Below, piece after piece: positions 25,774 to 38,501 of a stretch of 45,740 bases of DNA. The stretch spans positions 1 through 45,740 of the forward strand of contig CAZSRA010000007.1 in assembly GCA_964609585.1 (NCBI GenBank). Direction: 5' to 3'. A program made the position numbers and the translations under genes. The notes beneath the pieces were generated by a model that made no database searches, had not been told where the DNA came from, and saw nothing but the letters and a program-made list of their open reading frames with translations. Within the stretch, counting starts at the first letter, position 1. The number at the start of each line of letters is the position of its first letter. This stretch comes from an uncultured Candidatus Saccharimonadales bacterium (GTDB lineage Bacteria > Patescibacteriota > Saccharimonadia > UBA4664).

Positions 25774-25802
25774 AGAAATCCTTTCATACGTTATCGAACG
25801 CA

Positions 25803-25830: not shown

Positions 25831-25849
25831 GCGTTCAAGTATTTTGGGA

Positions 25850-25924
25850 CTATGAAAGCGGCCTAGGGCGAGACATGGGCATAGGCATCATCACAGTTTG
25901 GGCGTTATGGTGTTTTGTTTGCAT
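25850..25924 (-). CDS. Met-rich leader peptide 1, MQTKHHNAQTVMMPMPMSRPRPLS (24 aa; not in the ORF track)
   Basis: Read directly from the reverse complement; 4 Met in 6 codons; codons 19-22 contain GCCCTAGGCCG, the exact complement of the terminator 5' arm and loop. Confidence 0.8.
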   Translation of the reverse strand: MQTKHHNAQTVMMPMPMSRPRPLS

Positions 25925-25961
25925 GAGTAAATCTCAAGAGCTGTCGATAGTTGTTGTTAGT

Positions 25962-26375
25962 CTACGGGTGCAGCTTTAATCCGTGGACGATTTTGTCGAA
26001 GGTTTTACGATCTGCACGTATGGCTATCCCAACGATAGTAAATGCGCTGTCCCTTAGTGTCTTGACGACTGCTCGATTATCTATATCGTTGTCTGTTTTG
26101 AACATTCCTTCCGCATAAATTGCCGGTTTTACTCCACGATTTAGAGCCCGGTCTTTTGTCCGGATAAGGTGCTCTTGTGGTGCGGCATAGATAAAGACGG
26201 GTTGTACGATCAGTGGCAAATATTTGTGGTTGGTGGCGTCTTCATAGTCCTCTCCTATGCTTTCGGGCGCTGATGCCGCTATTCCAGTTGCCAAGAAGGC
26301 TGTGACATTGAGCTTCTGCCAGTCCAGTAGGTCGTCCCGGATCACGATGCCTACTTTAGTATCATGTGTTGCCAT
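25962..26375 (-). CDS. DUF2000 family protein (peptidyl-tRNA hydrolase II-like fold)
   Basis: KVGIVIRDDLLDWQKLNVTAFLATGI, YEDA...YLPL..QP, ...DKIVHGLKLHP; SD AAAGGAG. Confidence 0.8.
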   Translation of the reverse strand: MATHDTKVGIVIRDDLLDWQKLNVTAFLATGIAASAPESIGEDYEDATNHKYLPLIVQPVFIYAAPQEHLIRTKDRALNRGVKPAIYAEGMFKTDNDIDNRAVVKTLRDSAFTIVGIAIRADRKTFDKIVHGLKLHP

Positions 26376-26393
26376 AGCGAACTCCTTTTACAA

Positions 26394-26421
26394 TAAAAAA
26401 CCTCCGTTTTGCAGCGGAGGT
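26394..26421 (-). terminator. Attenuator terminator upstream of DUF2000
   Basis: Minus strand ACCTCCG-CTGCAAAA-CGGAGGT then TTTTTATT. Confidence 0.85.
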
Positions 26422-26451
26422 AGTTGTCGACTTGATTTATTCTACGACAAA

Positions 26452-26514
26452 CTAAAACTCCGCCTCACGGTGGGGCATCATTGCCATCATCATATTGCGG
26501 GTATTGTTAGTCAT
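26452..26514 (-). CDS. Met-rich leader peptide 2, MTNNTRNMMMAMMPHREAEF (20 aa; alternative in-frame ATG at 26523)
   Basis: 5 Met in 6 codons; 3' end GCGGAGTTTTAGTTTGTCG pairs with CGACAACTACCTCCGC, which includes the terminator 5' arm. Confidence 0.85.
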   Translation of the reverse strand: MTNNTRNMMMAMMPHREAEF

Positions 26515-26521
26515 TGGCTTC

Positions 26522-26550
26522 ATTCTATGTTGCTAGCGGTATTTTATCAA
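26522..26550 (-). promoter_or_regulatory. Promoter of the Met operon, giving a leaderless or near-leaderless leader-peptide mRNA
   Basis: TTGATA-N17-TAGAAT, 7 nt upstream of ATG 26514. Confidence 0.7.
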
Positions 26551-26597
26551 GTGATCGATATCTAAAACCTCAACATCTTCAAGGCCAACTAAAAGTT

Positions 26598-26621
26598 CTG
26601 ACATTGTATATACAATGTCAG
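26598..26621. promoter_or_regulatory. Perfect 24-bp palindrome, probable AbrB/MazE autoregulatory operator
   Basis: CTGACATTGTATATACAATGTCAG directly upstream of the mazE remnant. Confidence 0.7.
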
Positions 26622-26638
26622 TAACCGGAGGACATAAA

Positions 26639-26923
26639 ACGAAAACTACAACCTAAGTAAAAATGTGGGGCAATAGCCTGGCGATCCGCATTCCTTCTCG
26701 GGTAGCCCGAGATCTAGGGCTAACAATCGATAGCCAGATAGAAATCGCCAGCGATGGCAGCACCGCCACCATAAAACGCGAAGAGAACCCCCGCCTATCC
26801 TTAGAAGAAATTAGTCAAACCCCTCGACATACTATCCGACCATTGCAAAAGAGTTCGAATGAAAGCCGTTCAAGGGCACCAAGACACTATTTTTTTATGC
26901 TTCCACTAGACATGAATTGTTGA
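26639..26923 (+). pseudogene. mazE: Decayed AbrB/MazE/SpoVT antitoxin gene; no toxin gene follows
   Basis: GGAGG-N7-ACG AAA ACT ACA ACC TAA GTA AAA ATG TGG GGC AAT AGC (start appears as ACG, in-frame TAA); WGNSLAIRIP..A..LGL motif; similarity lost after LSLEE. Confidence 0.7.
26839..26881 (+). repeat. Direct repeat copy 1 (43 bp)
   Basis: ACCATTGCA-AAAGAGTTCGAATGAAAGCCGTTCAAGGGCACCA; differs from copy 2 by 1 indel and 2 substitutions. Confidence 0.9.
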
Positions 26924-26987
26924 GCCGAACCGACGGTTGCTTCATTTTCTCGAACGAAAGGTCTGGCGGCTTAAGCTGCATCCCGAA

Positions 26988-27329
26988 TTAAAATAGTTTG
27001 CTTCCCAGCGGCACTTCGCGTTCGGGCTGCGACAGAACCACATTGCCATGTGCATCCGCGAAACCAAGCGTAAGGCTTTCTGATATGAACGGACCTATCT
27101 GCTTGGGCGGAAAGTTCACAACTCCCATCACGAGCCGCCCGATCAACTCTTCTTTTGTATAATGTTTGGTTATTTGAGCCGACGAGCGCTTTAAGCCAAT
27201 TTCAGAGCCGAAGTCGATCGTAAGTTTATAGGCTGGTTTTCTTGCTTGAGGAAAATCCTCAGCGGCAATAATTTTCCCGGTTCGAATATCTATTTGCTCA
27301 AAGTCTGCGTAAGTGATGGTATTGTTCAT
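26988..27329 (-). CDS. csaA: tRNA-binding protein CsaA/Trbp111 (homologous to the MetRS C-terminal domain)
   Basis: DFEQIDIRTGKII, KPAYKLTIDFG, SSAQITKHY, VVNFPPKQIGPFISESLTLG. Confidence 0.92.
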   Translation of the reverse strand: MNNTITYADFEQIDIRTGKIIAAEDFPQARKPAYKLTIDFGSEIGLKRSSAQITKHYTKEELIGRLVMGVVNFPPKQIGPFISESLTLGFADAHGNVVLSQPEREVPLGSKLF

Positions 27330-27458
27330 AGGCCAAGTATACTATCCGTGTTCGGAATGACAAGATTTGTCGTCAACATGACGATTAAGTGATATGATAA
27401 ACAACCGCCACATCTGTTATTGTCATTGCGGTATGATGTCGAAAAAAAGGACACCTCT

Positions 27459-28199
27459 ATGAAAATCAATGCCATTCTTCAACAATTAGGTTTTTCCGAT
27501 AACGAGACGGCAGTGTATTTGGCCGCTCTGGAAACCGGGCTATCCTCAGCACAAGCAATAGCAAAAAAGGCTGGAATCAAACGAACCACCACTTACTCAA
27601 TCCTAGAAAAGCTGGTAGCTCGAGGAGTGGTGGGGAAGTCTATTGCACAAGGTGCTGCTCGGTTTATGGTAGAGCCACCCGAGAAGCTCATCGCAATGAT
27701 TACAAATCTACACGAACGGCTCATCGGCGTCTTGCCGGAGCTTGAAGCGGTCTACAACGCTCACGAGTCGAAGCCAAAAATTGTGTTCTATGAAGGCAAA
27801 GAAGCTATCGCAAACGTTCTCGAGGACACACTAAGAGAAAAGCCAACTGAGGTTCTTGAGTGGAACACTGATCTATATTTTGACAAATTCTCTAAGAGTC
27901 ATGATTATATCGATCGTCGAGCTGGACTCGAGATAAAAGCCCGGCGAATGGCAGGCGAGGGCTCAATTTGGCACACCAAACATCGGGCTTACGATAGCTT
28001 GGAAAAGTCTAAAACTCGCATTGTATCAAAAGACTTGTTTTGGCCCGAGATTGAAGTAAACATCTATGGCAATAAAGTGGCGTTTCTCAATTATGCCGAT
28101 GATACCTCCCTCATCATCGAGAATCGAGCCATCGCTTCCGCGATGAGGCAAGCATATGAGCTCAGTTGGATGGGTGCTGGGACTATTGAGGTTCGCTAA
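27459..28199 (+). CDS. TrmB-family transcriptional regulator
   Basis: LGFSDNETAVYLAALETG, KRTTTYSILEKLVARG, KPKIVFYEGKE, EVNIYGNKVA; start reassigned to MKINAIL. Confidence 0.88.
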   Translation: MKINAILQQLGFSDNETAVYLAALETGLSSAQAIAKKAGIKRTTTYSILEKLVARGVVGKSIAQGAARFMVEPPEKLIAMITNLHERLIGVLPELEAVYNAHESKPKIVFYEGKEAIANVLEDTLREKPTEVLEWNTDLYFDKFSKSHDYIDRRAGLEIKARRMAGEGSIWHTKHRAYDSLEKSKTRIVSKDLFWPEIEVNIYGNKVAFLNYADDTSLIIENRAIASAMRQAYELSWMGAGTIEVR

Positions 28200-28227
28200 T
28201 CGGAAATCGAGCTCGCTATTTGGTCTA

Positions 28228-28271
28228 ACCATTGCACAAAGAGTTCGAGTGAAAGCCGTTCAAGGGCGCCA
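28228..28271 (+). repeat. Direct repeat copy 2 (44 bp)
   Basis: ACCATTGCACAAAGAGTTCGAGTGAAAGCCGTTCAAGGGCGCCA. Confidence 0.9.
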
Positions 28272-28292
28272 GTTTGCGAATTAAAATGTATC

Positions 28293-28319
28293 AAAATACC
28301 CCTATAAAAGGGGTATTTT
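28293..28319. terminator. Bidirectional intrinsic terminator
   Basis: AAAATACCCCT-N5-AGGGGTATTTT between convergent trmB and lnt-like genes. Confidence 0.8.
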
Positions 28320-28335
28320 CGTTTGGAAGCGACTT

Positions 28336-29781
28336 CTACTTACGCATTTGCCATCGGCGGATCCTATGGCCAATAACGATGATGGCAAATAGCCCACTTA
28401 CCCATGCAAACACATCGCCAATCTTGCCGTATGGCGTATCGCCATTACCGACAGGCACAGTTGCCACACGAGAGCTAAAGGTGATCGACGAGCTCATGTT
28501 CTGTGCGATTACCCGTCCACGGTTATCGCTGACCGTTTGTTCGCCCTTTCGTGCAGATCGTGCTACCGAAAAGCCATCCTCAACGCCACGCATAACTGCA
28601 ATACGGGCATGCATCCAGTGGTCAATGGTGAAATCCTCGGCCGGTACGTAGACAAGGCCAACATGCTGTCCAGCGACGTCACTACGGATCATGTCCGGAA
28701 AGTCCATATCTTTGCAAATCTCCACTGCTGCGCCATCGCCGAGTAATCCTGGGGTTGAGCCGGGCATCAAGCCACCTTCATCACTACTAGACTCGGCGGT
28801 TAGTAATCGCCGTTTTGCGTAGGTTTTGCTCGTGCCGTCAGGCTCAAACAATATTGCGATATTGTGCCCGCTCGTGTCGGATGTCTCGTCGTCAAATCCC
28901 GCCACAATGCTCAGATGGTCGGTGCGTGCTTCGTTGGCTAGGGGAGCGAGAGCGGCGTCTCGCCACGCGGGCTTAAGGATTGCTAACTTCTCGGGCAATA
29001 CGACCCTCGAAAGCCCCGAATGCGTCACAGCAACCGCATGAATGTCGGCCGCGTAGGTAGTTGTAAGGTTAATCCAAGTTGGTGCGCCGCTCGCCCGTAG
29101 TGAGGAGGTGTCTTTAGCGATCACGGCTACCTGCGTGGTCACCTGACCGGCACTGGTACTAAGTCTGAGGATCCCAAATCCAAGGTTAGCTAGGAACGCA
29201 GTGGCCACGACCATTAAAAGAGGCTTAGCGTACCTTCGATCGCGCAGTGATAATGCAATGCCGTTGGCAAGCAGACAAATGAGGAACGTAATGCTCCATA
29301 TACCAAAAAGGGAGGCACTTTGTATTAATACTGGAGCGCCCACCTGAGTGTAAGCGAATGATCCGACCGTTCCGTTAGGTGAAACTAGTGAAGTTATATA
29401 CTCGGTAGCAGTCCACAATGCAGGGAAGAATAGCAGTGCTGCTACCCAATTTGAGCGTTTATAGACCCATTTGGTGAGAAGCACTGCAATGACGGCCGTT
29501 ACGGCGAGACCCAAAACACCAAATGTGACCCCGATAGTTGCTGCACCCGTTCCGAGAAATGGTCGGATAAATTCGCTATTGCCAATGCCGAAAGCTAGAA
29601 ATGTTGCAAGTCCCACGCGCCATCCAGGTTGCCTGCTGTAGGCCAGCCACAGCAGAGGTAGTGGAGCAATCCATGCCAGAGCCCACAGGGAGCCAAGTCC
29701 CGTTGACGCATAGAAAGCCAGAGCACTCACTGCAGTGCAGCCGATCACTCCGGCCCAGTCTTTTTGTTTGAGGTTATTCAC
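28336..29781 (-). CDS. Apolipoprotein N-acyltransferase-like membrane protein with C-N hydrolase domain
   Basis: TM N-terminus, LAWIAPLPL, triad candidates VLPEK / YAKRRL / EICKD, MRGVEDG, SDNRG; GTG start after AAAGGAG. Confidence 0.8.
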   Translation of the reverse strand: MNNLKQKDWAGVIGCTAVSALAFYASTGLGSLWALAWIAPLPLLWLAYSRQPGWRVGLATFLAFGIGNSEFIRPFLGTGAATIGVTFGVLGLAVTAVIAVLLTKWVYKRSNWVAALLFFPALWTATEYITSLVSPNGTVGSFAYTQVGAPVLIQSASLFGIWSITFLICLLANGIALSLRDRRYAKPLLMVVATAFLANLGFGILRLSTSAGQVTTQVAVIAKDTSSLRASGAPTWINLTTTYAADIHAVAVTHSGLSRVVLPEKLAILKPAWRDAALAPLANEARTDHLSIVAGFDDETSDTSGHNIAILFEPDGTSKTYAKRRLLTAESSSDEGGLMPGSTPGLLGDGAAVEICKDMDFPDMIRSDVAGQHVGLVYVPAEDFTIDHWMHARIAVMRGVEDGFSVARSARKGEQTVSDNRGRVIAQNMSSSITFSSRVATVPVGNGDTPYGKIGDVFAWVSGLFAIIVIGHRIRRWQMRK

Positions 29782-29818
29782 TCTGCGCTCCTTTATCTTA
29801 CCGTATTCATCTGCGATA

Positions 29819-29834
29819 ATGTAACATGTTACAT
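29819..29834. promoter_or_regulatory. Perfect 16-bp palindrome, probable MarR operator
   Basis: ATGTAACATGTTACAT between the divergent lnt-like and marR genes. Confidence 0.65.
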
Positions 29835-29856
29835 ACTTAATGATCAATGGGTCTAA

Positions 29857-30291
29857 ATGGAAAATTTTGAGTTTATCTTCGAGCTAAACCGTGCGGTCAA
29901 TATCTTCAATGCGTACTATGACACTCGGATCGCGCCAGACACGGCGATAAGCCGAGCGCAATTCACGGTGTTGCTACTTATCAATCGTTTTCCTGGCATT
30001 ACGAAAGCAGAACTTGCACGCAAGCTTAGTTGTTCGCATGTCGCTATAGGCAGAGTCGTTAAAATTTTAGTTAGCGCAGGCTATGTGGATGAGTCATTGG
30101 ATCCACAAAACTCGCATCTTGTGCATCTTGAGCCGACCAAGTTAGGCAAAAGTATGGTCGAAAGTGTTACGCGTACGTTTAACCAGGTTTCTGCTTCTTT
30201 GTTTGCAGGCCTGGAGGATAAAGTTAAGCTTAGTCCATTACGTGAACAGCTTGTAGCATTTAGTGAGACGGTCTTAAGGCATAAATCCTGA
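29857..30291 (+). CDS. MarR-family transcriptional regulator
   Basis: ISRAQFTVLLLI, ITKAELARKL, GRVVKILVSAGYV, LEPTKLG. Confidence 0.85.
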   Translation: MENFEFIFELNRAVNIFNAYYDTRIAPDTAISRAQFTVLLLINRFPGITKAELARKLSCSHVAIGRVVKILVSAGYVDESLDPQNSHLVHLEPTKLGKSMVESVTRTFNQVSASLFAGLEDKVKLSPLREQLVAFSETVLRHKS

Positions 30292-30364
30292 TCAATCCAC
30301 CGTTGGTGCCATCAATTCCTACAGTATGCCGTCGAACCTACCGATGTTGTAATAAAATATTTGC

Positions 30365-30387
30365 TATATACCCCTAGGGGGTATATA
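30365..30387. promoter_or_regulatory. CsoR-type operator
   Basis: TATATACCCC-TAG-GGGGTATATA immediately upstream of csoR. Confidence 0.85.
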
Positions 30388-30395
30388 TATGAAAT

Positions 30396-30722
30396 ATGAT
30401 TTCCAACGTTAAAAAGCGTACAATTCACCGCTCCAAGATCATCGAAGGTCAAATAAAGGGCCTGCAAAAGATGATCGACAACGAGGCCTATTGCATGTAT
30501 ATACTCACACAAAGCCTAGCCATTCAAAAGTCGCTTGCATCGCTAGACAAGCTCATCCTAGAGAACCATATACGTACTCACATCGTCGAGATGATGAGTT
30601 CGGGCGACGAGGGAAAGCAAGACAAAGCGCTCGCGGAACTGCTCGAACTGTACAAACTTCATAACATTAAGGGTCGGTCGGCAGATAGTGTTCCCGCGTC
30701 CATCAATAAAATGAATGTGTAG
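30396..30722 (+). CDS. csoR: CsoR/RcnR-family metal-sensing repressor
   Basis: IEGQIKGLQKMIDNEAYC..ILTQ, ILENHIRTH (second Cys position is His). Confidence 0.9.
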   Translation: MISNVKKRTIHRSKIIEGQIKGLQKMIDNEAYCMYILTQSLAIQKSLASLDKLILENHIRTHIVEMMSSGDEGKQDKALAELLELYKLHNIKGRSADSVPASINKMNV

Positions 30723-30748
30723 CTAAAATAGCTAAGGAGGGTAAAATC

Positions 30749-32743
30749 TTGAAACCAGTAAATCACGATGAACACGTCGACCACGATAAACACGCTGGAC
30801 ACGACCCCAACATGTTTAAGCAAAAGTTCTGGCTAAGCCTTGCGCTTACCATTCCCACGCTTTTATTCTCTGATACCGTCCAAGGCTGGTTTGGCTTGCA
30901 CTGGATATTCTCCGGCAGCCGCTATATTCCGGCTGTTTTTGGCACAATTATTTTCTTCTACGGTGGGTTAGTATTTCTAAAAAGCGCCAGAGTCGAGCTA
31001 GAGGCTCGCCTGCCCGGCATGATGACGCTCATCTCGATGGCCATTTCGGTAGCCTTTGGTTACAGTATCGCCGTTACCCTCAAACTCGTGAATGGTATGG
31101 ATTTCTGGTGGGAGCTTGCGACGCTAGTTACGATTATGCTCCTTGGGCATTGGCTCGAAATGGCTTCGGTGCGAAACGCGCAGGGCGCGCTAAAAGAACT
31201 CGCTAAGCTATTACCAGATGAAGTTGAGCTTGTGGTCGCTGGTGGTACAAAAAAAGTAGCGCTAGCCGAATTAAAAATTGGCGACCTGGTGCTCATTCGT
31301 CCCGGCGTCCAAATCCCAGCCGATGGTGAAGTAGTGAAGGGCGACTCAGACGTCAATGAATCAATGCTCACTGGCGAGTCAAAGCCAGTTAAGAAAACGG
31401 CAGAAGCACCAGTCATCGGCGGCACTATCAATGGTAGCGGCTCGTTAACCATCAGAATTACAAAGATCGGTGACGACACAGCCCTAGCTGGCATCATGAA
31501 GCTTGTAGCCCAGGCACAAAGTAGTAAGTCAAAAACACAAATTGTGGCAGATAAGGCCGCCTTCTATCTGACATTCGTAGCGCTTGGCGCAGCGGCGATC
31601 ACATGGGTAGCCTGGGCCGTGGCTGGGCAGACTGCGGGCTTCATCTTGGAGCGGATCGTTACCGTGCTAGTCATCGCTTGCCCGCATGCACTCGGCCTAG
31701 CCGTTCCCCTTGTGACCGCCATTTCCACGACACTCGCCGCCAAAAATGGTTTGCTTATTCGGCAGCGTATGGCGCTTGAAGCTGCCCGTAATATTGATGT
31801 GATACTGTTTGATAAGACAGGTACCCTCACAACCGGAAAGCAAGGGGTCGTAGATATTATTGCGAGTGGTGATAAAAACCAACTACTCGGGCTCGCTGCT
31901 GCCGTAGAGAATGAATCCGAGCACCCGATTGCTACGGCAATCGTGAGTTCTGCAAAAAAGCAGAACATAAAAATTCCACAAGCTACGGGCTTCAGCTCCC
32001 TCGCCGGACGCGGAGCCGGGGCCACCATTGCCGGTAACACCGTGCATGTAGGCAGTCCGCGCCTCATTGAGGAATTGAAAGCCGCAATTTCAGATGATTT
32101 GGCCACAGCATCGGCCCAGGCATCGAAGGAGGGTAAGACCGTGGTGTATGTTGTCCAAGATAAAACAGTCCACGGGGCAATCATGCTAGCCGACGTTATC
32201 CGGGAAGAGTCCAAAGAAGCGGTCTCTATCCTGCATGCTATGGGTAAACGCGTTGCCATGCTTACCGGCGATAGCAAGGGCGTAGCTGCATGGGTGGCGA
32301 AAGAAATTGGGATCGATGAGTATTTTGCTGAAGTATTGCCCGAGAACAAAGCCGATACCGTCAAAAAACTTCAGGCCGACGGCAGCAACGTTGCCATGGT
32401 CGGAGATGGTGTTAACGATGCTCCAGCTCTCACGCAGGCTGATGTCGGTATTGCGATTGGAGCTGGTACGGATGTGGCGATTGAGTCAGCGGGTATCGTA
32501 CTAGCATCGAGTGACCCACGAGGGGTGCCGAAAATCGTCAAACTGTCTAAAGCCACGTACCGTAAGATGATACAAAATCTTGCATGGGCCACTGGCTACA
32601 ATGCCCTGGCTATACCCCTCGCAGCCGGCGCGACAGCTGCGCTTGGTTTCGTCTTGTCACCAGCCTTTGGTGCAGTACTGATGTCGCTTTCAACGATTGT
32701 AGTAGCAATTAACGCCCAATTTTTGCGCAAACTAAAGCTGTAA
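30749..32743 (+). CDS. copB: Copper-translocating P1B-type ATPase (CopB-like, CPH motif)
   Basis: His-rich N-terminus, TGES, ACPHALGLA, DKTGTLT, SEHP, MVGDGVNDAPAL, YN and MSLS TM motifs. Confidence 0.93.
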   Translation: MKPVNHDEHVDHDKHAGHDPNMFKQKFWLSLALTIPTLLFSDTVQGWFGLHWIFSGSRYIPAVFGTIIFFYGGLVFLKSARVELEARLPGMMTLISMAISVAFGYSIAVTLKLVNGMDFWWELATLVTIMLLGHWLEMASVRNAQGALKELAKLLPDEVELVVAGGTKKVALAELKIGDLVLIRPGVQIPADGEVVKGDSDVNESMLTGESKPVKKTAEAPVIGGTINGSGSLTIRITKIGDDTALAGIMKLVAQAQSSKSKTQIVADKAAFYLTFVALGAAAITWVAWAVAGQTAGFILERIVTVLVIACPHALGLAVPLVTAISTTLAAKNGLLIRQRMALEAARNIDVILFDKTGTLTTGKQGVVDIIASGDKNQLLGLAAAVENESEHPIATAIVSSAKKQNIKIPQATGFSSLAGRGAGATIAGNTVHVGSPRLIEELKAAISDDLATASAQASKEGKTVVYVVQDKTVHGAIMLADVIREESKEAVSILHAMGKRVAMLTGDSKGVAAWVAKEIGIDEYFAEVLPENKADTVKKLQADGSNVAMVGDGVNDAPALTQADVGIAIGAGTDVAIESAGIVLASSDPRGVPKIVKLSKATYRKMIQNLAWATGYNALAIPLAAGATAALGFVLSPAFGAVLMSLSTIVVAINAQFLRKLKL

Positions 32744-32755
32744 CAGGGAGCTACT

Positions 32756-34132
32756 TTAAGCCACAAACGACGACAGCAGCGCCACCGCAAACACGCCCAT
32801 CACGACAAACGCAGTCCACAGCCCAAGCTTCGACCACATCCCGCTTTTATGCTCGCCCATAATGTCGCTACGGCTAGAAATTCTTGCAATCAGGTAAATG
32901 AGCGGTACCGCAGCAATGCCGTTAAACACTGCCGTGAGCACCAACGCCTTCATGGGGTCGAGTCCCACAAAATTAAACATGAGGCCCACGAGCGTGCCAA
33001 AAATAATCACAAAGTAGAATCCGCGAGCTTGCTTAAATTTTCGAAACAGCCCCTCGCGCCAGTTAAACGTTTCCGCCACAGCATACGATGACGAACCCGC
33101 GAGCACCGGAATAGCCTGGAGTCCGACACCAATAATCCCCACCGAAAAGATCAGCTTGGCCAAAAATCCCGCATGCGGAAAACTGTGAACCAATGGCTCA
33201 AGCGCCCTGGCAGCATCAGCGGCTGTTGCAATATTTGTAATGCCAGCCTGGTTGAGCACGACCGCACCCACCACGATGATGAACCACGCGCTCACATTAG
33301 AAAACAGCATACCCATGGCCGTGTCGATTCGCAGCCGCCGCAGATATGGCTTCGTGAGTCGTGGAATACCACCTTTTTGAGCCAACCGGTGTTCGGCAAT
33401 TTCATCCTCCACCACATTGCTCGTCTCCCAAAAGAATAGATATGGCGAGATCGTCGTCCCAAAAATGGCCACAATTATGTAGAGAAAACTCTTGCTCCAC
33501 TCAACGTGCGGCACAAATGTGGCTTTTGCTACTGCTCCCCACGGCACCCCAATTAAAAATGCCGTAATGATATACGCAAACAATGCTATAGCTAGCCATT
33601 TCAAAAGCCGAATATAGCTTTTGTAGGATACAAACACTTCAAGCAGCAAAATTATCAGCGAGAATCCGACAGCGAGTACGGCAAACGGTATCCCTGGGAC
33701 CAGTAAGCGCGTACTAGCCGCCATGGCCCCAATGTCTGAGCCGATGTTGAAAGTATTTGCTGCCACCACCAGCGCCACCACCGGGAACAGTATTTTTTTG
33801 GAATAATGCTCGCGCACTGCCGCTGCCAACCCTTTGCCGGTCACCGCGCCTACCCGCATGCAGGCCTCTTGCACTGCCGTCATGAGAGGCAGGGTAAAGA
33901 GCATCGTCCACGGCATGTGGAGGCCAAACTGGGCGCCGGCCTGTGAGTATGTCGCAATACCGGAGGGGTCGTCATCGGCCGCCCCTGTAACGATTCCTGG
34001 GCCAAGAATTCGCAAAAATCGGCCAAAGCTCTTTTGTTTTGCTCGTCGCCGGGCCGCTCGGGTATGCTCCGCCTCGGCTAGGGCTTCATCGGGCAGTTCA
34101 ACATTAATAGGTTCATTAGATGTACTACTCAT
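32756..34132 (-). CDS. NRAMP-like divalent metal cation transporter
   Basis: LGPGIVTGAADDDPSGIATYSQAGA, GTTISPYLFFW, 11-12 TM segments; start reassigned to MSSTSNEP. Confidence 0.9.
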   Translation of the reverse strand: MSSTSNEPINVELPDEALAEAEHTRAARRRAKQKSFGRFLRILGPGIVTGAADDDPSGIATYSQAGAQFGLHMPWTMLFTLPLMTAVQEACMRVGAVTGKGLAAAVREHYSKKILFPVVALVVAANTFNIGSDIGAMAASTRLLVPGIPFAVLAVGFSLIILLLEVFVSYKSYIRLLKWLAIALFAYIITAFLIGVPWGAVAKATFVPHVEWSKSFLYIIVAIFGTTISPYLFFWETSNVVEDEIAEHRLAQKGGIPRLTKPYLRRLRIDTAMGMLFSNVSAWFIIVVGAVVLNQAGITNIATAADAARALEPLVHSFPHAGFLAKLIFSVGIIGVGLQAIPVLAGSSSYAVAETFNWREGLFRKFKQARGFYFVIIFGTLVGLMFNFVGLDPMKALVLTAVFNGIAAVPLIYLIARISSRSDIMGEHKSGMWSKLGLWTAFVVMGVFAVALLSSFVA

Positions 34133-34201: not shown

Positions 34202-34217
34202 TGTGACGAAGCTCACA
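34202..34217. promoter_or_regulatory. CRP-type box
   Basis: TGTGA-CGAAGC-TCACA between the divergent NRAMP and GyrI-like genes. Confidence 0.7.
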
Positions 34218-34263
34218 GCCAATCTAGTAGTAAAAGAGGCACCATAAGGGTGGAGGCAGTATC

Positions 34264-34854
34264 ATGAAAACTACCCTTGAAATAGTCGAAGTTCCCCCAC
34301 AAAACTATGCTTGTATCGACGGCACCGGCAACCCGAATGACAATCTGGATTTTCAAGCCGCTATCGAGGCGCTATACGATATAGGCTACGTTCTAAAAGC
34401 GACCCGCAAGAAAGCAGGGCTCGAGTCAGATTACAAAATCGGCCCCCTTGAGGCCTTATGGCTATCAGACCAAGAGGATTTTGATTGGAGCAACGACACA
34501 AAGACTCCTGCCTGGCGCTGGGTGCTTATGATTTCCCAACCAGCTTTTATCGCAAAGTCTGAATTCACAGCAGCCATCTACCAACTTTCCCTCAAAAAGC
34601 CCAACCCGGCTATAGCCAAGCTCTATCTGAAACAGCTCGATGAAGGCACGGTAGTTCAGATTATGCATGTCGGTCCATGCAGTGCGGAGGGCCCGAACAT
34701 TAAGGCCATGCACGCTTATGCCGAGGAGCAGGGCTACCAATTGACTGGTCAGCATCACGAAATCTATCTCAGCGATCCCCGTCGAGCAAAGCCCGAAAAG
34801 CTCCGCACACTCCTGCGCCATCCCGTCCGACCTATCAACAAACACGCAAAGTAG
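34264..34854 (+). CDS. GyrI-like small-molecule-binding domain protein
   Basis: IDGTGNPN, PLEALW, WRWVLMISQP, VQIMHVGP, HHEIYLSDPRR..PEKLRTLLRHP. Confidence 0.88.
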   Translation: MKTTLEIVEVPPQNYACIDGTGNPNDNLDFQAAIEALYDIGYVLKATRKKAGLESDYKIGPLEALWLSDQEDFDWSNDTKTPAWRWVLMISQPAFIAKSEFTAAIYQLSLKKPNPAIAKLYLKQLDEGTVVQIMHVGPCSAEGPNIKAMHAYAEEQGYQLTGQHHEIYLSDPRRAKPEKLRTLLRHPVRPINKHAK

Positions 34855-34899
34855 CGCGAAATGTCCACTGTAGATTCATTCACTCTCTAAGGAGCTGCC

Positions 34900-35241
34900 A
34901 TGATAACTGTAAAAGCCAAAGGCGATTACAAACTCATCGAAACCAAATCGCAGGTCAAAATCCTCTACTTAGACCATCAAGCTTATGCTTGGGTCTGGGC
35001 CGAAAATATTGGCGAAATTCTCGTTACCACCCATCGACCGCACAAAATAGATCATATCCTAGCTGTTGGGCGTTACCGCTTATACAATGTCGAAACAGAG
35101 CCCAAATACACCGATCTGCAGCACTTGGAGCTTCTCGTCGGGAAAGGGGAGTGGCAAGGTTATTTACTACTCACCGGTCTGCCCACGGACCAAAAAATGC
35201 GTAGCCGTATCATCCCAACGGCTGAGCTCCTTACGCGATGA
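34900..35241 (+). CDS. Hypothetical protein
   Basis: SD AAGGAG, compact 113-aa ORF; no family recognised with certainty. Confidence 0.75.
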   Translation: MITVKAKGDYKLIETKSQVKILYLDHQAYAWVWAENIGEILVTTHRPHKIDHILAVGRYRLYNVETEPKYTDLQHLELLVGKGEWQGYLLLTGLPTDQKMRSRIIPTAELLTR

Positions 35242-35243
35242 GC

Positions 35244-35259
35244 TGTGATCCGAGTCACT
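35244..35259. promoter_or_regulatory. CRP-type box
   Basis: TGTGA-TCCGAG-TCACT; centre is 41.5 bp upstream of a start inferred from -10 TTTAAT (35281-35286). Confidence 0.65.
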
Positions 35260-35308
35260 GTTAAAACCGAGGCACAAAGCTTTAATTAGCCTTAAATAGG
35301 GGACAAAA

Positions 35309-35476
35309 ATGATTCGAACTAAACCCAGTCGCAAACACCATCATGGTCTACTGACGGCACAAGAATTCCAAAAATTACTCCGAGCCCAAGCGCCGTCTGC
35401 ACCAAAAGTCATTCTCGAAAACCTAAGATACCGACTTGATCGCACTCATTTCCTGGAGCGCAAGAGATTACCATGA
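35309..35476 (+). CDS. Small basic protein (55 aa; below the ORF-track cutoff)
   Basis: AGGGGA SD; MIRTKPSRKHHHGLLTAQEFQKLLRAQ...RKRLP; stop overlaps the next ATG (ATGA). Confidence 0.6.
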   Translation: MIRTKPSRKHHHGLLTAQEFQKLLRAQAPSAPKVILENLRYRLDRTHFLERKRLP

Positions 35477-35943
35477 AGACCGTACTTCATCGTAGCCCCA
35501 CAGCCTTGGCGCTGCGTATTTTTCTTTTGCTGTTTCTCATTGATACAGCTTATGCGCTGCTCATCATGCTGTTTCTGAGCATAAATCCGTCCCCAAATTA
35601 CTACACCGGCCTCCTGATCCTGCTCTGGGCCACGCACACGGCCAAGTATATTGCCACGACCTTCCTGCTGCTCCGTCTGCTACTTGTGTGGCTCAGTGAG
35701 TTTTATGCCATCGAAAACGGGCATCTAACAATCCATTCGGGCATCTACGCAATATCGGAAAAAGTTTATGATCTCGCTCAGCTAAAACAAGTGAAGGTTC
35801 ACCAAGACTGGTTCGGTCGACGCTTCAATTTCGGCGATCTTGCCCTTCGGATATCGAGCTCAGGCAGCCACGAAACCATCGAACTACACGACATCGTTAA
35901 CCCACAAATCAGCGAGCGGCAGTTTATAGCCGAGTTCAAATGA
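35473..35943 (+). CDS. Membrane protein with bacterial PH domain
   Basis: Two TM helices, then YAIENGHLTIHSGI...IKVHQDWFGRRFNFGDL pattern. Confidence 0.8.
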   Translation: MKTVLHRSPTALALRIFLLLFLIDTAYALLIMLFLSINPSPNYYTGLLILLWATHTAKYIATTFLLLRLLLVWLSEFYAIENGHLTIHSGIYAISEKVYDLAQLKQVKVHQDWFGRRFNFGDLALRISSSGSHETIELHDIVNPQISERQFIAEFK

Positions 35944-35978
35944 CTGCCCTCCACGCTAAGTATTGGTATAGTGAAGAT

Positions 35979-36626
35979 ATGGATCAAGTCGTTTCGCAAA
36001 AAATCGAGGAGTTCTTCGAATCGTACCCCGGCCGCAATTATCGCAAAGGACAGATGCTTGTTCACGCTCACGACGATCCAGCCTATATTTTTCACTTGCT
36101 CGAAGGCAGAGTGAAGCAATATGACATTTCGTATCGAGGTGATGAGATTGTGCTAAACATTTTTAAACCCCCAGCCTTCTTTCCGATGTCATACGCTATG
36201 AACAAAACCCCCAATGTCTACTTCTACGAAGCCGAAACCGACATAGAACTAAAGCAAGCTCCCGTCGAAGACACCATTAATTTTCTACGATCAAACGCCG
36301 ACGTTACCTACGATCTTCTGGGCCGTGTATACAGAGGCACCGACGGTCTGCTGGGCCGGCTAGCTCACCTCATGGCTGGGACGGCCCGCAGCCGCGTGCT
36401 ATATGAACTTCTCATTGAGGTTCGCCGCTTCGGCGTGTCGCGTGGCAAGGGCGTGGCTATTGTGCTTACCGAATCCGATATTGCAGCCCATGCTGGTCTC
36501 GCTCGGGAGACCGTCAGTCGCGAAATCCACAAACTCAAAGATGAAGGACTCATTTCGCTCATCAAAAATGAAATCTGGGTGAACGATATAGAAAAACTGG
36601 CGACTAAAGTTAGTCGTGAGCTTTAG
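35979..36626 (+). CDS. Crp/Fnr-family transcriptional regulator with CRP-type recognition helix
   Basis: cNMP-binding barrel (FHLLEGRVK), LTESDIAAHAGLARETVSREIHKL (RE..SR); start reassigned to MDQVV. Confidence 0.93.
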   Translation: MDQVVSQKIEEFFESYPGRNYRKGQMLVHAHDDPAYIFHLLEGRVKQYDISYRGDEIVLNIFKPPAFFPMSYAMNKTPNVYFYEAETDIELKQAPVEDTINFLRSNADVTYDLLGRVYRGTDGLLGRLAHLMAGTARSRVLYELLIEVRRFGVSRGKGVAIVLTESDIAAHAGLARETVSREIHKLKDEGLISLIKNEIWVNDIEKLATKVSREL

Positions 36627-37050
36627 ATAGTCGCCATACGCATATCGCAAGTATCGTAAACGCCGCTAGACACAAAGTGGCCTGGCTAATAAATCCAAAG
36701 AGATTAAAAAACTTAGTGGTACAAACCACACTTACGCTACAAACTTTCGGCGCAATGTGAATGACATTCCAATGCACCAGCTGCTGGAAAAATGCTACCG
36801 GCAGTCCAATAGATACGAACGGGGTTATATAGCGCCATACCCCATGGTCCCGTGTGACCGCCCCCACACAAAGAATGAGAAAAACCCCAAACATCAGCAT
36901 GCGGTTGAGCCAACACAAACTAGCTGCAGGATGATGCAAAATCTCAATAAAATAAACACTAGCGGCCGAGGCCATAAGGGCGGTGGCCCAAGCTATATAA
37001 AATGATACAGCCAGCGGGCGTTGATATGGTTGAGTGGAGTTTTTAGTCAT
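36610..37050 (-). CDS. DsbB/BdbC-like disulfide bond formation protein (first CxxC cysteine absent)
   Basis: SVYFIEIL..PAASLCWLNRMLMF, SIGLPVAFFQ, CSVSVVC, FISQATLCLAAF. Confidence 0.75.
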   Translation of the reverse strand: MTKNSTQPYQRPLAVSFYIAWATALMASAASVYFIEILHHPAASLCWLNRMLMFGVFLILCVGAVTRDHGVWRYITPFVSIGLPVAFFQQLVHWNVIHIAPKVCSVSVVCTTKFFNLFGFISQATLCLAAFTILAICVWRLSKAHD

Positions 37051-37084
37051 GTCACTAACATAAGCACGGTCCAGAAGCACCGGC

Positions 37085-37100
37085 TGTGAGGCGGATCACA
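37085..37100. promoter_or_regulatory. CRP-type box shared by the divergent dsbB-like and heliorhodopsin promoters
   Basis: Perfect TGTGA-GGCGGA-TCACA; centre 41.5 bp from ATG 37134 and 42.5 bp from ATG 37050. Confidence 0.82.
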
Positions 37101-37133
37101 TAAAACACTTATGCTTATGTTATATTGCTCACT

Positions 37134-37901
37134 ATGAGCAAACCCATATCTACGACAAGTCTTCGCAAACTCAATGCCTTCATGGCGATCCTGCATGCTG
37201 CCCAAGCCATCGCTATTTTGCTTTTAGCAAAAGACTTTAAGCTCCCTCTCACCATTGCGTATTTGCAGTTTAACCCTGCTACCCGCGGTCTAGAGACTCA
37301 CATTCACACGCTGGGCCAAGTACCCCTCGCCGCGCTGATAGTCGCATTCTTTGCCCTCTCGGCTCTAGCGCATCTTTTTGTAGCCACCGTGTATCGTCGT
37401 CGATACGAGGCCGATTTAGCCCGTAGTATCAACTATATTCGCTGGATCGAATATTCTCTGTCGGCAAGCACCATGATGGTCGCGATCGCCATGCTTGTTG
37501 GCGTGTACGACGCGCCGTCTCTGGGTATGATCTTCGTCCTCACTGCCGGCATGAACCACATGGGGCTCATCATGGAAGTGCACAACCAAACTACGAAGCG
37601 CACAAATTGGCTCAGTTTTCGAATTGGAACCGTGCTCGGGGTAATGCCTTGGCTCGTTATCCTGGCCTACTTCCTCTCAAGCGCCGCCTATGGCTCTACG
37701 CCGCCCACCTTCGTCTACTGGATTTTCGTCTCCATTTTCATCTTTTTCAACTGCTTCGCCATCAACATGGTCCTGCAATACAAAAAAGTAGGTCCTTGGC
37801 GCGATTATCTCTACGGCGAGCGGGCTTACATTATCTTAAGTTTGGTTGCCAAATCGCTTCTAGCCTGGCAAGTCTTTGCCGGCACTCTCCGGCCAAATTA
37901 G
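37134..37901 (+). CDS. heR: Heliorhodopsin
   Basis: LHAAQAI, AHLF, NYIRWIEYSLSASTM, YGERAYIILSLVAKSLLAWQVF (retinal-binding Lys), 7 TM. Confidence 0.96.
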   Translation: MSKPISTTSLRKLNAFMAILHAAQAIAILLLAKDFKLPLTIAYLQFNPATRGLETHIHTLGQVPLAALIVAFFALSALAHLFVATVYRRRYEADLARSINYIRWIEYSLSASTMMVAIAMLVGVYDAPSLGMIFVLTAGMNHMGLIMEVHNQTTKRTNWLSFRIGTVLGVMPWLVILAYFLSSAAYGSTPPTFVYWIFVSIFIFFNCFAINMVLQYKKVGPWRDYLYGERAYIILSLVAKSLLAWQVFAGTLRPN

Positions 37902-37909
37902 CTTAAGAG

Positions 37910-38398
37910 CTAATTAGGATCTTTTTTCTCGGCGGGAGACACTCGGTCCATAACTATTGGCGCCAAGTAGTAAGCAGCCGCCCCTCCGGCCACCGCAAAA
38001 ACCAAGCTACCCAATACATCAATCGGTGAATGCACGTGTGCCAAAATACGAGCCACTCCGACCACCGCCGCCAGCGCAAATAGCCCCATCCCTAAGCGCT
38101 TAGACGCAAAGAAAATCGTAACTGCAATCGTTGCCGCAAACACCGTATGGTCCGACGGAAAGCCATTATCAGCCGCATGAGGTAGTAATGGCGTAAGATG
38201 GTGCGTTACAAACGGCCGCGGATCGTAAAACAATGCACCCCCGATCTTCGTCAGGGCAAAGGCCACTATCGCCGTTACCGCCCCTACAACTGCAATTCGG
38301 ATTTTTTGCAATTTCGGTAAGGTTAGCCAATAAACAAGCGCGATCAGGCCGACAAAGAACACCAGATATTTAGCGCAGAGAATAATAAGTAGATTCAT
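37910..38398 (-). CDS. PAP2-family phosphatase (undecaprenyl-pyrophosphate phosphatase BcrC-like)
   Basis: YDPRPF, GFPSDHT, ARILAHVHSPIDVLG; start reassigned to MNLLIILC. Confidence 0.9.
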   Translation of the reverse strand: MNLLIILCAKYLVFFVGLIALVYWLTLPKLQKIRIAVVGAVTAIVAFALTKIGGALFYDPRPFVTHHLTPLLPHAADNGFPSDHTVFAATIAVTIFFASKRLGMGLFALAAVVGVARILAHVHSPIDVLGSLVFAVAGGAAAYYLAPIVMDRVSPAEKKDPN

Positions 38399-38501
38399 TC
38401 CCTTAAGTATAGCATCGCCGCTCATAGTCCTCATAGCAAAAAGCTTATGATCTAGACCCCTCGGATGGTATATTAGTAGCAATTGATTACGAGGCACGAA
38501 T

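What the first reader, a model, noticed from the sequence alone, without database searches (positions are those of the whole stretch)
34202..37901. Local Crp regulon: three boxes within 3 kb around the regulator
Seen: boxes at 34202 (perfect), 35244 (one mismatch, -41.5 to a plausible -10) and 37085 (perfect). I noticed no comparable box elsewhere in the window. Candidate targets: NRAMP or GyrI-like gene, small ORF-PH protein (possibly reading into crp), dsbB-like and heR. The 34202 box does not fit class II spacing and may repress or act at a distance.
Basis: partly seen in the sequence, partly recalled or inferred. Interest (0 to 1): 0.65.

Follow-up and report, generated by a model that had tools for sequence, protein, structure and literature searches.

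The report
Saccharibacterial Crp-family regulator's local regulon
Three binding sites for a Crp/Fnr-type transcription factor sit at activator positions in front of small operons beside the factor's own gene in a soil Saccharibacteria genome. The same layout recurs in dozens of related genomes, so it is a real but conventional regulatory unit in a poorly studied bacterial group.

Summary
The three TGTGA-N6-TCACA boxes exist at the stated coordinates and are the only strong matches in the 45.7 kb window. The contig is from a soil Saccharibacteria (Patescibacteria) genome.

**Regulator.** The adjacent gene encodes a Crp/Fnr-fold protein. Its recognition helix, RETVSR, matches E. coli CRP (R180/E181/R185). 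It lacks the cAMP-contacting residues (E72→M, R82→N) and has no cysteine.

**Conservation.** In 80 orthologous crp loci there are 29 perfect boxes against 0.8 expected. Site density falls about 30-fold with distance from crp. A -10-like hexamer sits at a fixed offset that places the box centre at -41.5, the class II activator geometry.

**Orthologous counterparts.**
- Box 1 heads the GyrI-like–u113 operon, not NRAMP.
- Box 2 heads sORF–bPH(–crp), which implies autoregulation.
- Box 3 heads the DsbB-like gene, probably on a leaderless mRNA. On its other side it faces heliorhodopsin, where relatives have a cupin gene.

Heliorhodopsin is a sporadic target, not a core one: 78 HeR orthologue loci have no upstream box.

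**Verdict.** A genuine, conserved local regulon of a probably cAMP-independent Crp-family activator. It is a new member of a known kind, supported by comparative evidence only. The effector and the transcription starts are untested.

The parts
34202..34217 (.). Box 1, a perfect TGTGA-N6-TCACA site. It is the proposed class II activator site of the GyrI-like–u113 promoter.
   Evidence: (PWM 16.7). Orthologous boxes precede GyrI-like genes in L001 (perfect) and L005 (1 mismatch).
34240..34245 (+). Weak -10 (CACCAT) of the box 1 promoter. It places the box centre at -42.5. SD GGAGG is at 34252-34256 and the ATG at 34264.
   Evidence: It aligns with TACAAT (L001) and TAGAAT (L005).
34264..35241 (+). 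GyrI-like gene (34264-34854) and u113 (34900-35241, conserved Patescibacteria protein of unknown fold). This is the putative operon driven from box 1.
   Evidence: Pfam GyrI-like E=1.9e-14. u113 lies next to crp in 30 of 80 loci and has more than 600 homologues. No + strand terminator lies in the 45-bp gap.
35244..35259 (.). Box 2 (1 mismatch). It is the class II site of the sORF55–bPH(–crp) promoter and starts 2 bp after the u113 stop codon.
   Evidence: (PWM 18.9). L054 has an orthologous arrangement: CGTGACCCACGTCACT, then TAAGAT at offset 37, then SD, sORF and bPH.
35281..35286 (+). -10 TTTAAT at offset 37, which places the box 2 centre at -41.5. The predicted transcription start is about 35293. 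SD AGGGGA is at 35298-35303.
   Evidence: offset rule.
35309..35943 (+). sORF55 (35309-35476) and the bacterial PH-domain membrane protein (35473-35943). They are translationally coupled through an ATGA overlap.
   Evidence: Pfam bPH_2. sORF homologues occur in L005 and L054.
35964..35978 (+). crp's own extended -10 promoter (TGGTATAGT) plus a 6-nt discriminator. It predicts a leaderless crp mRNA starting at ATG 35979.
   Evidence: Conserved in L001 and L002 and in the window. Most homologues are 215 aa. Residues 1-10 of the longer ORF model at pLDDT <50.
35979..36626 (+). Crp/Fnr-family regulator, 215 aa from M14 of the 228-aa ORF that begins at 35940. It has recognition helix RETVSR, no Cys, and a non-canonical nucleotide pocket.
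   Evidence: Pfam HTH_Crp_2, cNMP_binding and Crp. Alignment A1. hhalign against E. coli CRP. Foldseek against MtbCRP/GlxR/NtcA at E~1e-16. Cys count.
36610..37050 (-). DsbB/BdbC-like membrane protein, with A-S-L-C in place of the first-loop CxxC. It is the conserved target of box 3 and its mRNA is probably leaderless.
   Evidence: NCBIfam PRK03113 E=1e-19, below cut-off. The box-to-ATG distance is 41.5-42.5 in the window, L002 and L054.
37057..37062 (-). -10 TATGTT of the DsbB-like promoter. It is followed by 6 nt (AGTGAC) and ATG 37050, placing the box 3 centre at -42.5.
   Evidence: It aligns with TATGCT (L002) and TAGGCT (L054).
37085..37100 (.). Box 3, a perfect site shared by two divergent promoters whose start codons are 84 bp apart.
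   Evidence: (PWM 19.7). Orthologous boxes occur in L002, L054 and L001.
37118..37126 (+). Extended -10 (TGtTATATT) of the heR promoter. With ATG at 37134, the box 3 centre falls at -40.5/-41.5, and the mRNA is leaderless or nearly so.
   Evidence: In L002 and L001 the same side of the box carries TAATCT or TACCAT at offset 37 in front of a cupin gene.
37134..37901 (+). Heliorhodopsin, with the SxxxK retinal-lysine motif (SLVAK) present. It is a lineage-specific occupant of the box 3 '+' promoter.
   Evidence: Pfam E=3.5e-95. NCBIfam HeR 318 bits against a cut-off of 100. Sequence. The SxxxK criterion is from PMC9166423.

Best explanation
The three boxes are operator sites of the Crp/Fnr-family transcription factor encoded between them. 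A dimer recognises TGTGA-N6-TCACA (extended consensus cTGTGAT-N4-ATCACAg) through an RETVSR recognition helix. It sits centred about 41.5 bp upstream of the transcription start, in place of a -35 element, and recruits RNA polymerase. This is class II activation.

In this genome it would switch on four transcription units:
- GyrI-like–u113, from box 1.
- sORF55–bPH, with read-through into crp, from box 2. This would be positive autoregulation on top of crp's own constitutive leaderless promoter.
- From box 3, the divergent and probably leaderless DsbB-like and heliorhodopsin genes.

What is shown: sites, spacing, conservation, protein fold and recognition residues. What is inferred: that this protein binds these sites, the sign of regulation, the transcription starts and the read-through. 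The signal is unknown. The sensor domain lacks the cAMP-binding residues and any cysteine. It therefore either binds an unidentified ligand in a very conserved pocket or works without an effector, as SdrP and DdrI do. The target set includes DsbB/VKOR, PNPOx-like, cupin, GyrI-like, PH-domain membrane proteins and occasionally heliorhodopsin. This hints at an envelope, redox or light-stress response.
For: **Sites in the window.** There are 4 hits against 0.91 expected, all within 2.9 kb. The three boxes are the top three PWM scores in 45.7 kb.

**Conservation around crp.** In 80 crp-orthologue loci (840 kb) there are 29 perfect boxes against 0.83 expected. Density decays from 4.6 to about 0.1 per 10 kb with distance from crp. 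50 of 80 loci, and all 7 with >=60% identity, have a site within 1.5 kb.

**Geometry.** TANNNT hexamers peak at offset 37, putting the box centre at -41.5. This occurs in 19 of 70 oriented promoters, against a mean of 1.6 at other offsets (binomial P~1e-15).

**Recurrent targets.** The families downstream of boxes are crp itself, bPH_3/PNPOx, F3, u113, DsbB-like, VKOR, cupin and GyrI-like.

**Orthologous footprints.** In aligned promoters the arms and the -10 position are conserved while the spacers diverge.

**Protein.** It has the Crp/Fnr fold. R189, E190 and R194 are invariant and equal CRP R180, E181 and R185. PMC11253593 describes the R180ETVGR185–TGTGA contacts.

**Promoter type.** None of the box promoters has a -35 match, whereas the neighbouring NRAMP promoter does.
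Against: - There is no experimental datum. No RNA run holds this sequence, so the transcription starts, the leaderless mRNAs and the sign of regulation are all inferred.
- The box 1 -10 (CACCAT) is weak.
- 30 of 80 crp loci show no box within 1.5 kb.
- Some boxes upstream of crp orthologues sit at -34.5 or -44.5, positions more compatible with repression.
- heR orthologues elsewhere lack the box.
- Binding by this particular protein rather than a paralogue has not been shown.
Confidence: 0.75

Rival explanations
1. The protein is a classical cAMP receptor protein, and the boxes put these genes under cAMP-dependent (catabolite-type) control.
For: The box consensus and the recognition helix are the same as for E. 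coli CRP. Source databases name homologues 'CRP-like cAMP-binding protein'. Pfam cNMP_binding matches at E=7.6e-11. Some Saccharibacteria (oral clade G6) encode an adenylate cyclase (PMC8386444).
Against: The residues that hold the cAMP phosphoribose in CRP are replaced family-wide: E72→M83, R82→N92 (invariant) and S83→V (contact list from PMC11253593). The NCBIfam CRP equivalog scores 29 bits against a cut-off of 266. No cyclase gene is in the window. The targets are not catabolic genes.
Confidence: 0.1
2. The boxes are mainly repressor operators. Under this reading the factor shuts off its neighbours and itself rather than activating them.
For: Crp/Fnr proteins can repress. In some relatives the box upstream of crp overlaps the -35/-10 region, for example L009 where TATAAT at offset 30 puts the box at -34.5. 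Box 2 starts 2 bp after the u113 stop codon and could also block read-through.
Against: The dominant, sharply phased -41.5 geometry together with absent -35 elements and weak -10s (CACCAT, TTTAAT) is the signature of activator-dependent promoters. The beta4-beta5 loop reads YRGDE, with invariant G67 and E69 aligned to CRP activating region 3. From memory, FNR has GDE at this position.
Confidence: 0.12
3. The sites belong to a different Crp/Fnr paralogue encoded elsewhere in the genome, and the neighbouring crp gene is merely one of its targets.
For: Some loci carry two family members (84 family members in 79 of the loci). The TGTGA-type motif is shared by many Crp-family proteins.
Against: Box density is tied to the position of this crp gene across genomes whose other neighbours have been shuffled. 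The recognition helix fits the motif and is invariant.
Confidence: 0.05
4. The boxes are chance palindromes or RNA hairpins (terminators) with no role in DNA binding.
For: Box 2 follows a stop codon directly. All are short inverted repeats.
Against: The statistics in the window and across 80 loci argue against chance. The arms keep their sequence while the spacers vary, with no compensatory arm changes. The 5-bp stems have no T-run and none was called as a terminator. Rfam finds nothing there.
Confidence: 0.01

Closest known systems
E. coli CRP (CAP) at class II promoters
   Same: It has the same fold and the same recognition-helix residues (R-E-T-V-x-R). It uses the same 16-bp core, TGTGA-N6-TCACA, centred near -41.5 in place of a -35 element. 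One site can serve two divergent promoters.
   Different: Sequence identity is only about 20-22%. The cAMP pocket residues E72, R82 and S83 are replaced. The regulon is small and clustered next to the regulator gene rather than global and catabolic. Several targets appear to be leaderless.
SdrP (TTHA1359) of Thermus thermophilus and DdrI of Deinococcus radiodurans
   Same: These are Crp-family proteins that bind TGTGA-N6-TCACA-like sites without cAMP. SdrP is described as a class II activator of oxidative-stress genes (PMC8465061; PMC11253593). SdrP (2zcw) and DdrI (8yz7) are among the sequence and fold hits.
   Different: The relationship is distant (E=2.4e-9 and 2.2e-7). DdrI keeps the E72 and R82 equivalents, whereas this family does not. 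Effector independence is only a hypothesis here. The recognition helix ends in S-R rather than T-K.
NtcA (cyanobacterial 2-oxoglutarate sensor)
   Same: It is the best sequence match in the PDB (E=1.6e-12) and in NCBIfam. It is also a class II activator.
   Different: It scores 47.8 bits against an equivalog cut-off of 245. NtcA's helix reads R-V-T-V-T-R in the alignment, and from memory it binds GTA-N8-TAC. The sites found here are TGTGA-type.
FNR
   Same: It is the canonical class II activator. The beta4-beta5 loop here reads RGDE, and from memory FNR activating region 3 contains G85-D86-E87. Relatives carry a second, FNR-like TTGAT-N4-ATCAA site 23 bp downstream of the main box. The recognition helix has the FNR-type Ser before the final Arg.
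   Different: There is no cysteine at all, so no Fe-S cluster. NCBIfam Fnr scores 28.8 bits against a cut-off of 228. The primary sites are TGTGA, not TTGAT.

Membership tests
Crp/Fnr superfamily | N-terminal cNMP-binding-like beta-roll, a long dimerisation helix and a C-terminal winged HTH (HTH_Crp_2). | tested here: met
   Pfam PF00027 42.3 bits (cut-off 27.5), PF13545 51.6 bits (cut-off 27) and PF00325 27.3 bits (cut-off 21). AF2 model with pLDDT 81. Foldseek against MtbCRP, GlxR, NtcA and CprK at E 1e-16 to 1e-13.
CRP-type DNA recognition (TGTGA-N6-TCACA binders) | Recognition helix R-E-x-x-x-R (CRP R180, E181, R185) and cognate palindromes near the regulated genes. | tested here: met
   RETVSR has invariant R189, E190 and R194. 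Boxes are enriched 35-fold around crp orthologues and decay with distance. Physical binding was not tested.
cAMP receptor protein in the strict sense | The cAMP-contacting residues Glu72, Arg82, Ser83, Thr127 and Ser128. | tested here: not met
   hhalign gives E72→M83, R82→N92 (invariant), S83→V93 and S128→D135; only T127→T134 is kept. The NCBIfam CRP equivalog scores 29 bits against 266.
FNR | A cysteine cluster that ligates an oxygen-labile [4Fe-4S] centre. | tested here: not met
   The 215-aa protein contains no cysteine. The family consensus has at most one, in the HTH domain.
NtcA | Reaching the NtcA equivalog score, and GTA-N8-TAC sites. | tested here: not met
   47.8 bits against a cut-off of 244.95. 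The sites found are TGTGA-type.
Class II activator-dependent promoter | Activator site centred near -41.5 relative to a mapped transcription start, with no functional -35. | tested here: inconclusive
   In silico the feature is met. The -10-like hexamer sits at offset 37±1 for all four window promoters and for 19 of 70 promoters in relatives, and there are no -35 matches. The transcription starts are not mapped, because no RNA data exist.
Heliorhodopsin | The HeR profile above cut-off and the SxxxK retinal lysine in TM7. | tested here: met
   Pfam 318 bits (cut-off 26.7). NCBIfam HeR 318 bits (cut-off 100). SLVAK is present. The motif criterion is from PMC9166423.
DsbB/BdbC disulfide oxidoreductase | The profile above cut-off and two redox Cys pairs, including the first-loop CxxC. 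| tested here: not met
   Pfam DsbB scores 16.7 bits against 22.1. NCBIfam PRK03113 scores 71 bits against 124. The first loop reads A-S-L-C in the window, L002 and L054. Homologues in L003 and L004 (36-37% identical) keep C-N-L-C and pass the Pfam cut-off. The window protein is homologous, but it is probably not a canonical DsbB.

The most novel reading that the evidence does not exclude
This is a Patescibacteria-wide Crp-family sensor with a new, strictly conserved effector pocket (PPAFFPMS…TPN). It would respond to a signal other than cyclic nucleotides, such as a redox, light-derived or host-derived metabolite. It would control a compact, mobile set of envelope and oxidative-folding genes, the uncharacterised protein u113 with no structural match, and in some lineages heliorhodopsin. 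That would give the first defined transcription factor–regulon pair in the Candidate Phyla Radiation and a handle on what heliorhodopsin is expressed with.
Probability: 0.3. Interest if true: 0.65.

Novelty: new member of a known kind. Interest (0 to 1): 0.45.

Why it matters
Almost nothing is known about gene regulation in Saccharibacteria and other Patescibacteria, which have tiny genomes and few transcription factors. This case offers:
- a regulator with a clear motif and a fixed promoter architecture;
- a small, conserved target set (DsbB/VKOR, PNPOx-like, cupin, GyrI-like, PH-domain membrane proteins, u113);
- simple tests, such as EMSA, DAP-seq or a reporter in an E. coli crp mutant.

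It also places one heliorhodopsin gene under a defined promoter. That could help test the proposal that heliorhodopsins are linked to light-induced oxidative stress (PMC9166423). The mechanism itself, a Crp-type class II activator with autoregulation, is textbook.

Tried and rejected
- **RNA evidence.** Only five soil or rhizosphere DNA runs hold the sequence, so no transcription start mapping was possible.
- **heR as a conserved target.** 78 heR orthologue loci with upstream sequence (48-68% identity) show no box upstream. There are two partial exceptions. L106 has crp, then PNPOx and a box facing a bPH_3–HeR operon. L067 has HeR directly upstream of crp without a box.
- **NRAMP as the box 1 target.** Rejected. 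NRAMP has a complete -35/-10 (TGGACA-17-TATGCT) and a leaderless-type start, which puts the box at -77.5. The alternative TATAAT gives -47.5. The NRAMP near a HeR in L122 has no box.
- **RNA element.** Rfam finds only a tRNA-Leu in the window.
- **Fourth box at 36853 and weak site at 37118.** Both have low PWM scores and lie in coding sequence or overlap the -10, so I treat them as chance.
- **u113 function.** No Pfam or NCBIfam family matches. The AF2 model is confident but has no PDB fold match.
- **Literature.** I found no paper on a Crp regulon in Saccharibacteria or Patescibacteria, or on a Crp–heliorhodopsin link.
- **Genome-wide scan.** Not possible, because only ±6 kb around each orthologue could be fetched. 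The outer parts of the loci served as background instead.

Full report
**Observation.** The window carries TGTGACGAAGCTCACA at 34202-34217, TGTGATCCGAGTCACT at 35244-35259 and TGTGAGGCGGATCACA at 37085-37100. With one mismatch allowed, the pattern TGTGA-N6-TCACA occurs four times in 45,740 bp, against 0.91 expected. No shuffle out of 100 reached four, and all four hits lie within 2.9 kb. The fourth hit (36853) is inside a coding sequence and scores poorly. I built a position weight matrix (PWM) only from sites in related genomes. With it the three boxes score 19.7, 18.9 and 16.7. The next best site in the window scores 12.1, which shuffled sequence reaches about once per window.

**Context.** Homologue names and the titles of related genome records place the contig in Saccharibacteria (Patescibacteria/CPR). 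The sequence is held by soil metagenome runs. The genes around the boxes are as follows:

| Coordinates | Strand | Gene |
|---|---|---|
| 32756-34132 | - | NRAMP |
| 34264-34854 | + | GyrI-like |
| 34900-35241 | + | u113, a 113-aa protein without a family |
| 35309-35476 | + | sORF55, a 55-aa ORF |
| 35473-35943 | + | bacterial PH-domain membrane protein |
| to 36626 | + | Crp/Fnr regulator |
| 36610-37050 | - | DsbB/BdbC-like protein |
| 37134-37901 | + | heliorhodopsin |
| 37910-38497 | - | PAP2 phosphatase |

The rest of the window is mostly housekeeping: NusA, ClpB-like, RadA, TyrRS, RecG, trigger factor and ClpP. A CsoR-like repressor and a P-type ATPase lie next to NRAMP.

**The regulator.**
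- It has the Crp/Fnr fold. Pfam cNMP_binding and HTH_Crp_2 are above cut-off. Foldseek matches M. tuberculosis CRP, GlxR, NtcA and CprK at E 1e-16 to 1e-13.
- It reaches no curated subfamily threshold. NtcA scores 47.8 against 245, CRP 29 against 266 and Fnr 28.8 against 228.
- In an alignment of 22 homologues the recognition helix RETVSR is invariant. It aligns with E. coli CRP R180-E181-T-V-G-R185, the residues that read TGTGA (PMC11253593).
- The residues that hold cAMP are replaced: E72 by M83, R82 by an invariant N92 and S83 by V.
- The protein has no cysteine.
- It is therefore a CRP-type DNA binder. It is unlikely to be a cAMP receptor and it cannot be an FNR-type Fe-S sensor.
- The pocket segment FKPPAFFPMSYAxNKTPN is among the most conserved parts of the family. 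This may point to an unknown ligand. Effector-independent relatives such as SdrP and DdrI are also known.

**Conservation of the motif.**
- I fetched 80 loci encoding orthologues (45-79% identity) from Saccharibacteria and other Patescibacteria genomes.
- They contain 29 perfect boxes against 0.83 expected, and 51 one-mismatch boxes against 25 expected.
- The extended consensus is cTGTGAT-N4-ATCACAg.
- Site density is 4.6 per 10 kb within 500 bp of crp. It falls to 0.1-0.2 per 10 kb beyond 4 kb.
- 50 of 80 loci, including all seven with at least 60% identity, have a site within 1.5 kb of crp.

**Promoter architecture.**
- I oriented each box toward the gene it precedes. A TANNNT hexamer starts exactly 37 bp after the first base of the box in 19 of 70 cases, against a mean of 1.6 at the other 53 offsets (P about 1e-15).
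- With a standard -10 this puts the box centre at -41.5, the class II position.
- None of these promoters has a -35 match, whereas the neighbouring NRAMP promoter does.
- A second, smaller peak puts some boxes at -64.5. This is explained by 16 of 84 boxes that carry a second, looser site exactly 23 bp downstream, often the FNR-like TTGAT-N4-ATCAA. That tandem form is absent from the window.

**Targets.** The gene families that recur behind boxes are as follows:
- crp itself.
- A pair of bPH_3 and PNPOx-like genes.
- An unannotated membrane protein (family F3).
- u113.
- DsbB-like and VKOR proteins.
- A cupin.
- GyrI-like proteins.

u113 is next to crp in 30 of 80 loci. It has more than 600 homologues that stay 60-80% identical across Patescibacteria. 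It models confidently as a small all-beta protein without any fold match in the PDB.

**The three window boxes.**
- *Box 1.* On the + strand, CACCAT lies at 34240-34245 (offset 38, box at -42.5), followed by GGAGG and the GyrI-like ATG.
  - The orthologous promoters have TACAAT (L001) and TAGAAT (L005) at offset 37. In L001 the GyrI-like gene has decayed to a stub but the box and promoter remain.
  - So box 1 does fit class II spacing, and its target is GyrI-like–u113.
  - NRAMP, on the other strand, has TGGACA-17-TATGCT followed by 6 nt and its ATG. That places the box at -77.5, out of helical phase, so I do not count NRAMP as a target.
- *Box 2.* TTTAAT at 35281-35286 is at offset 37, followed by AGGGGA and the sORF55 ATG.
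  - sORF55 and the PH-domain gene overlap by ATGA.
  - L054 has the same unit: a two-mismatch box, TAAGAT at offset 37, an SD, a homologous sORF and bPH.
  - L005 has one long operon, GyrI–sORF–F20–u113–crp, behind a single box.
  - No terminator separates bPH from crp, so box 2 probably feeds crp as well.
- *Box 3.* It is shared by two divergent promoters whose start codons are 84 bp apart.
  - Toward the DsbB-like gene lie TATGTT, six bases and then ATG 37050, putting the box at -42.5. L002 and L054 have the same layout with TATGCT and TAGGCT.
  - Toward heliorhodopsin lie TGtTATATT at 37118-37126 and ATG 37134, putting the box at -40.5/-41.5.
  - In L002 and L001 this side of the box carries TAATCT or TACCAT at offset 37 in front of a cupin gene. 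Heliorhodopsin therefore occupies a promoter that serves a different gene in the closest relatives.

**Heliorhodopsin as a target.** 78 heR orthologue loci with upstream sequence from metagenomes (48-68% identity) show no box upstream. There are two partial exceptions. L106 has crp, then a PNPOx gene and a box facing a bPH_3 gene that is followed after 7 bp by heR. L067 has heR directly upstream of crp without a box. Heliorhodopsin is therefore an occasional recruit, not a core member of the regulon.

**The crp start and its own promoter.**
- Most homologues are 215 aa.
- In the window, L001 and L002, the sequence TGGTATAGT, six bases and then ATG precedes Met14 of the longer ORF.
- This looks like an extended -10 promoter giving a leaderless crp mRNA.
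- It also explains the apparently conserved 'WYS' in the spurious N-terminal extension. Residues 1-10 of that extension model at pLDDT below 50.
- The same leaderless signature precedes several other genes in the window. This supports the leaderless reading for the DsbB-like, heR and NRAMP genes.

**Mechanism and limits.** The best-supported model is a class II activator that autoregulates and switches on a handful of neighbouring operons. It rests on sequence statistics, phasing and conservation. No binding, transcription start or expression data exist for this organism.

The sign of regulation is inferred from three features: the -41.5 geometry, the weak or absent core elements, and an invariant G-D/E-E in the beta4-beta5 loop. 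That loop aligns with CRP activating region 3. The resemblance to FNR's G85-D86-E87 is from memory.

The signal is unknown. A redox, envelope or light-stress role is suggested only by the target list and by the literature proposal for heliorhodopsins (PMC9166423).

**Comparison and novelty.** The system works like CRP or FNR at class II promoters. In being probably cAMP-independent, it resembles SdrP, DdrI and CrpPg. It is a member of the Crp/Fnr superfamily but not of the CRP, FNR or NtcA subfamilies. I found no description of this regulon in the searchable literature. I rate it a new member of a known kind. It is useful for CPR biology and easy to test, but mechanistically conventional.

Noticed in passing
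window 35964-35981: A conserved extended -10 (TGGTATAGT), 6 nt and then ATG at 35979 lie in front of Met14 of the annotated 228-aa crp ORF, and the same is seen in L001 and L002. The true protein is probably 215 aa from a leaderless mRNA. The 'WYS' of the longer ORF is the promoter read as codons.
   Followed up: yes
window 12738, 18280, 27329, 34132, 44132: Several genes have a -10-like hexamer 6-7 nt before their start codon and no Shine-Dalgarno sequence. They are a RadA-like gene, a 154-aa ORF, a tRNA-binding-domain protein, NRAMP and an ArsR-family gene. Leaderless mRNAs may be common in this organism.
   Followed up: partly
window 36610-37050 (-): The DsbB/BdbC-like protein has A-S-L-C where homologues in L003 and L004 have the redox-active C-N-L-C. 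L002 and L054 have the same substitution. The second Cys pair (C-x6-C) is kept. It may not be a canonical disulfide oxidoreductase.
   Followed up: partly
window 34900-35241: u113 has more than 600 homologues that are 60-80% identical across Patescibacteria. It has no Pfam or NCBIfam family. Its AF2 model is a confident all-beta fold (pLDDT 89.8) with no PDB match (best E 0.2). It is the most frequent neighbour of crp, in 30 of 80 loci.
   Followed up: partly
L001 1835/1858, L002 5132/5155, L013, L015, L055, L106 and others: 16 of 84 boxes in relatives have a second, looser site exactly 23 bp downstream, often the FNR-like TTGAT-N4-ATCAA. This gives a tandem -64.5/-41.5 promoter in front of bPH_3/PNPOx, F20 and u113 genes. 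The window has no such tandem.
   Followed up: partly
L001 1685-1816: A decayed GyrI-like gene survives as a 22-codon ORF that fuses the start to the C-terminal '…LLRHP…'. It still sits behind a perfect box, TACAAT and an SD. The promoter has outlived its gene.
   Followed up: yes
window 35309-35476: The 55-aa ORF overlapping the PH-domain gene by ATGA is a real, conserved small gene. Homologues occur in L005 (5110-5307) and L054, sharing the motif (K/R)Y(R/S)(L/F)(D/E)(H/R)(P/T)(R/H)(F/L)LE.
   Followed up: partly
window 30396-34132: A CsoR-like metal repressor, a P-type ATPase and NRAMP form a metal-homeostasis cluster directly upstream of the regulon. None has a Crp box at a class II position.
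   Followed up: partly
window 37118-37133 and 36853-36868: There are two weak box-like sequences. TGTTATATTGCTCACT (PWM 12.1) overlaps the heR -10 and lies 33 bp from box 3. TGTGACCGCCCCCACA (PWM 8.9) is inside the DsbB-like gene. Both are probably chance, but the first could let the regulator occlude the heR promoter at high concentration.
   Followed up: no
window 23000-31000: G+C falls to 0.46-0.49, against 0.53-0.58 elsewhere, and GC skew goes flat. This stretch runs from the tRNA-Leu (23419-23504) to the metal cluster. It may be an acquired or accessory segment.
   Followed up: no
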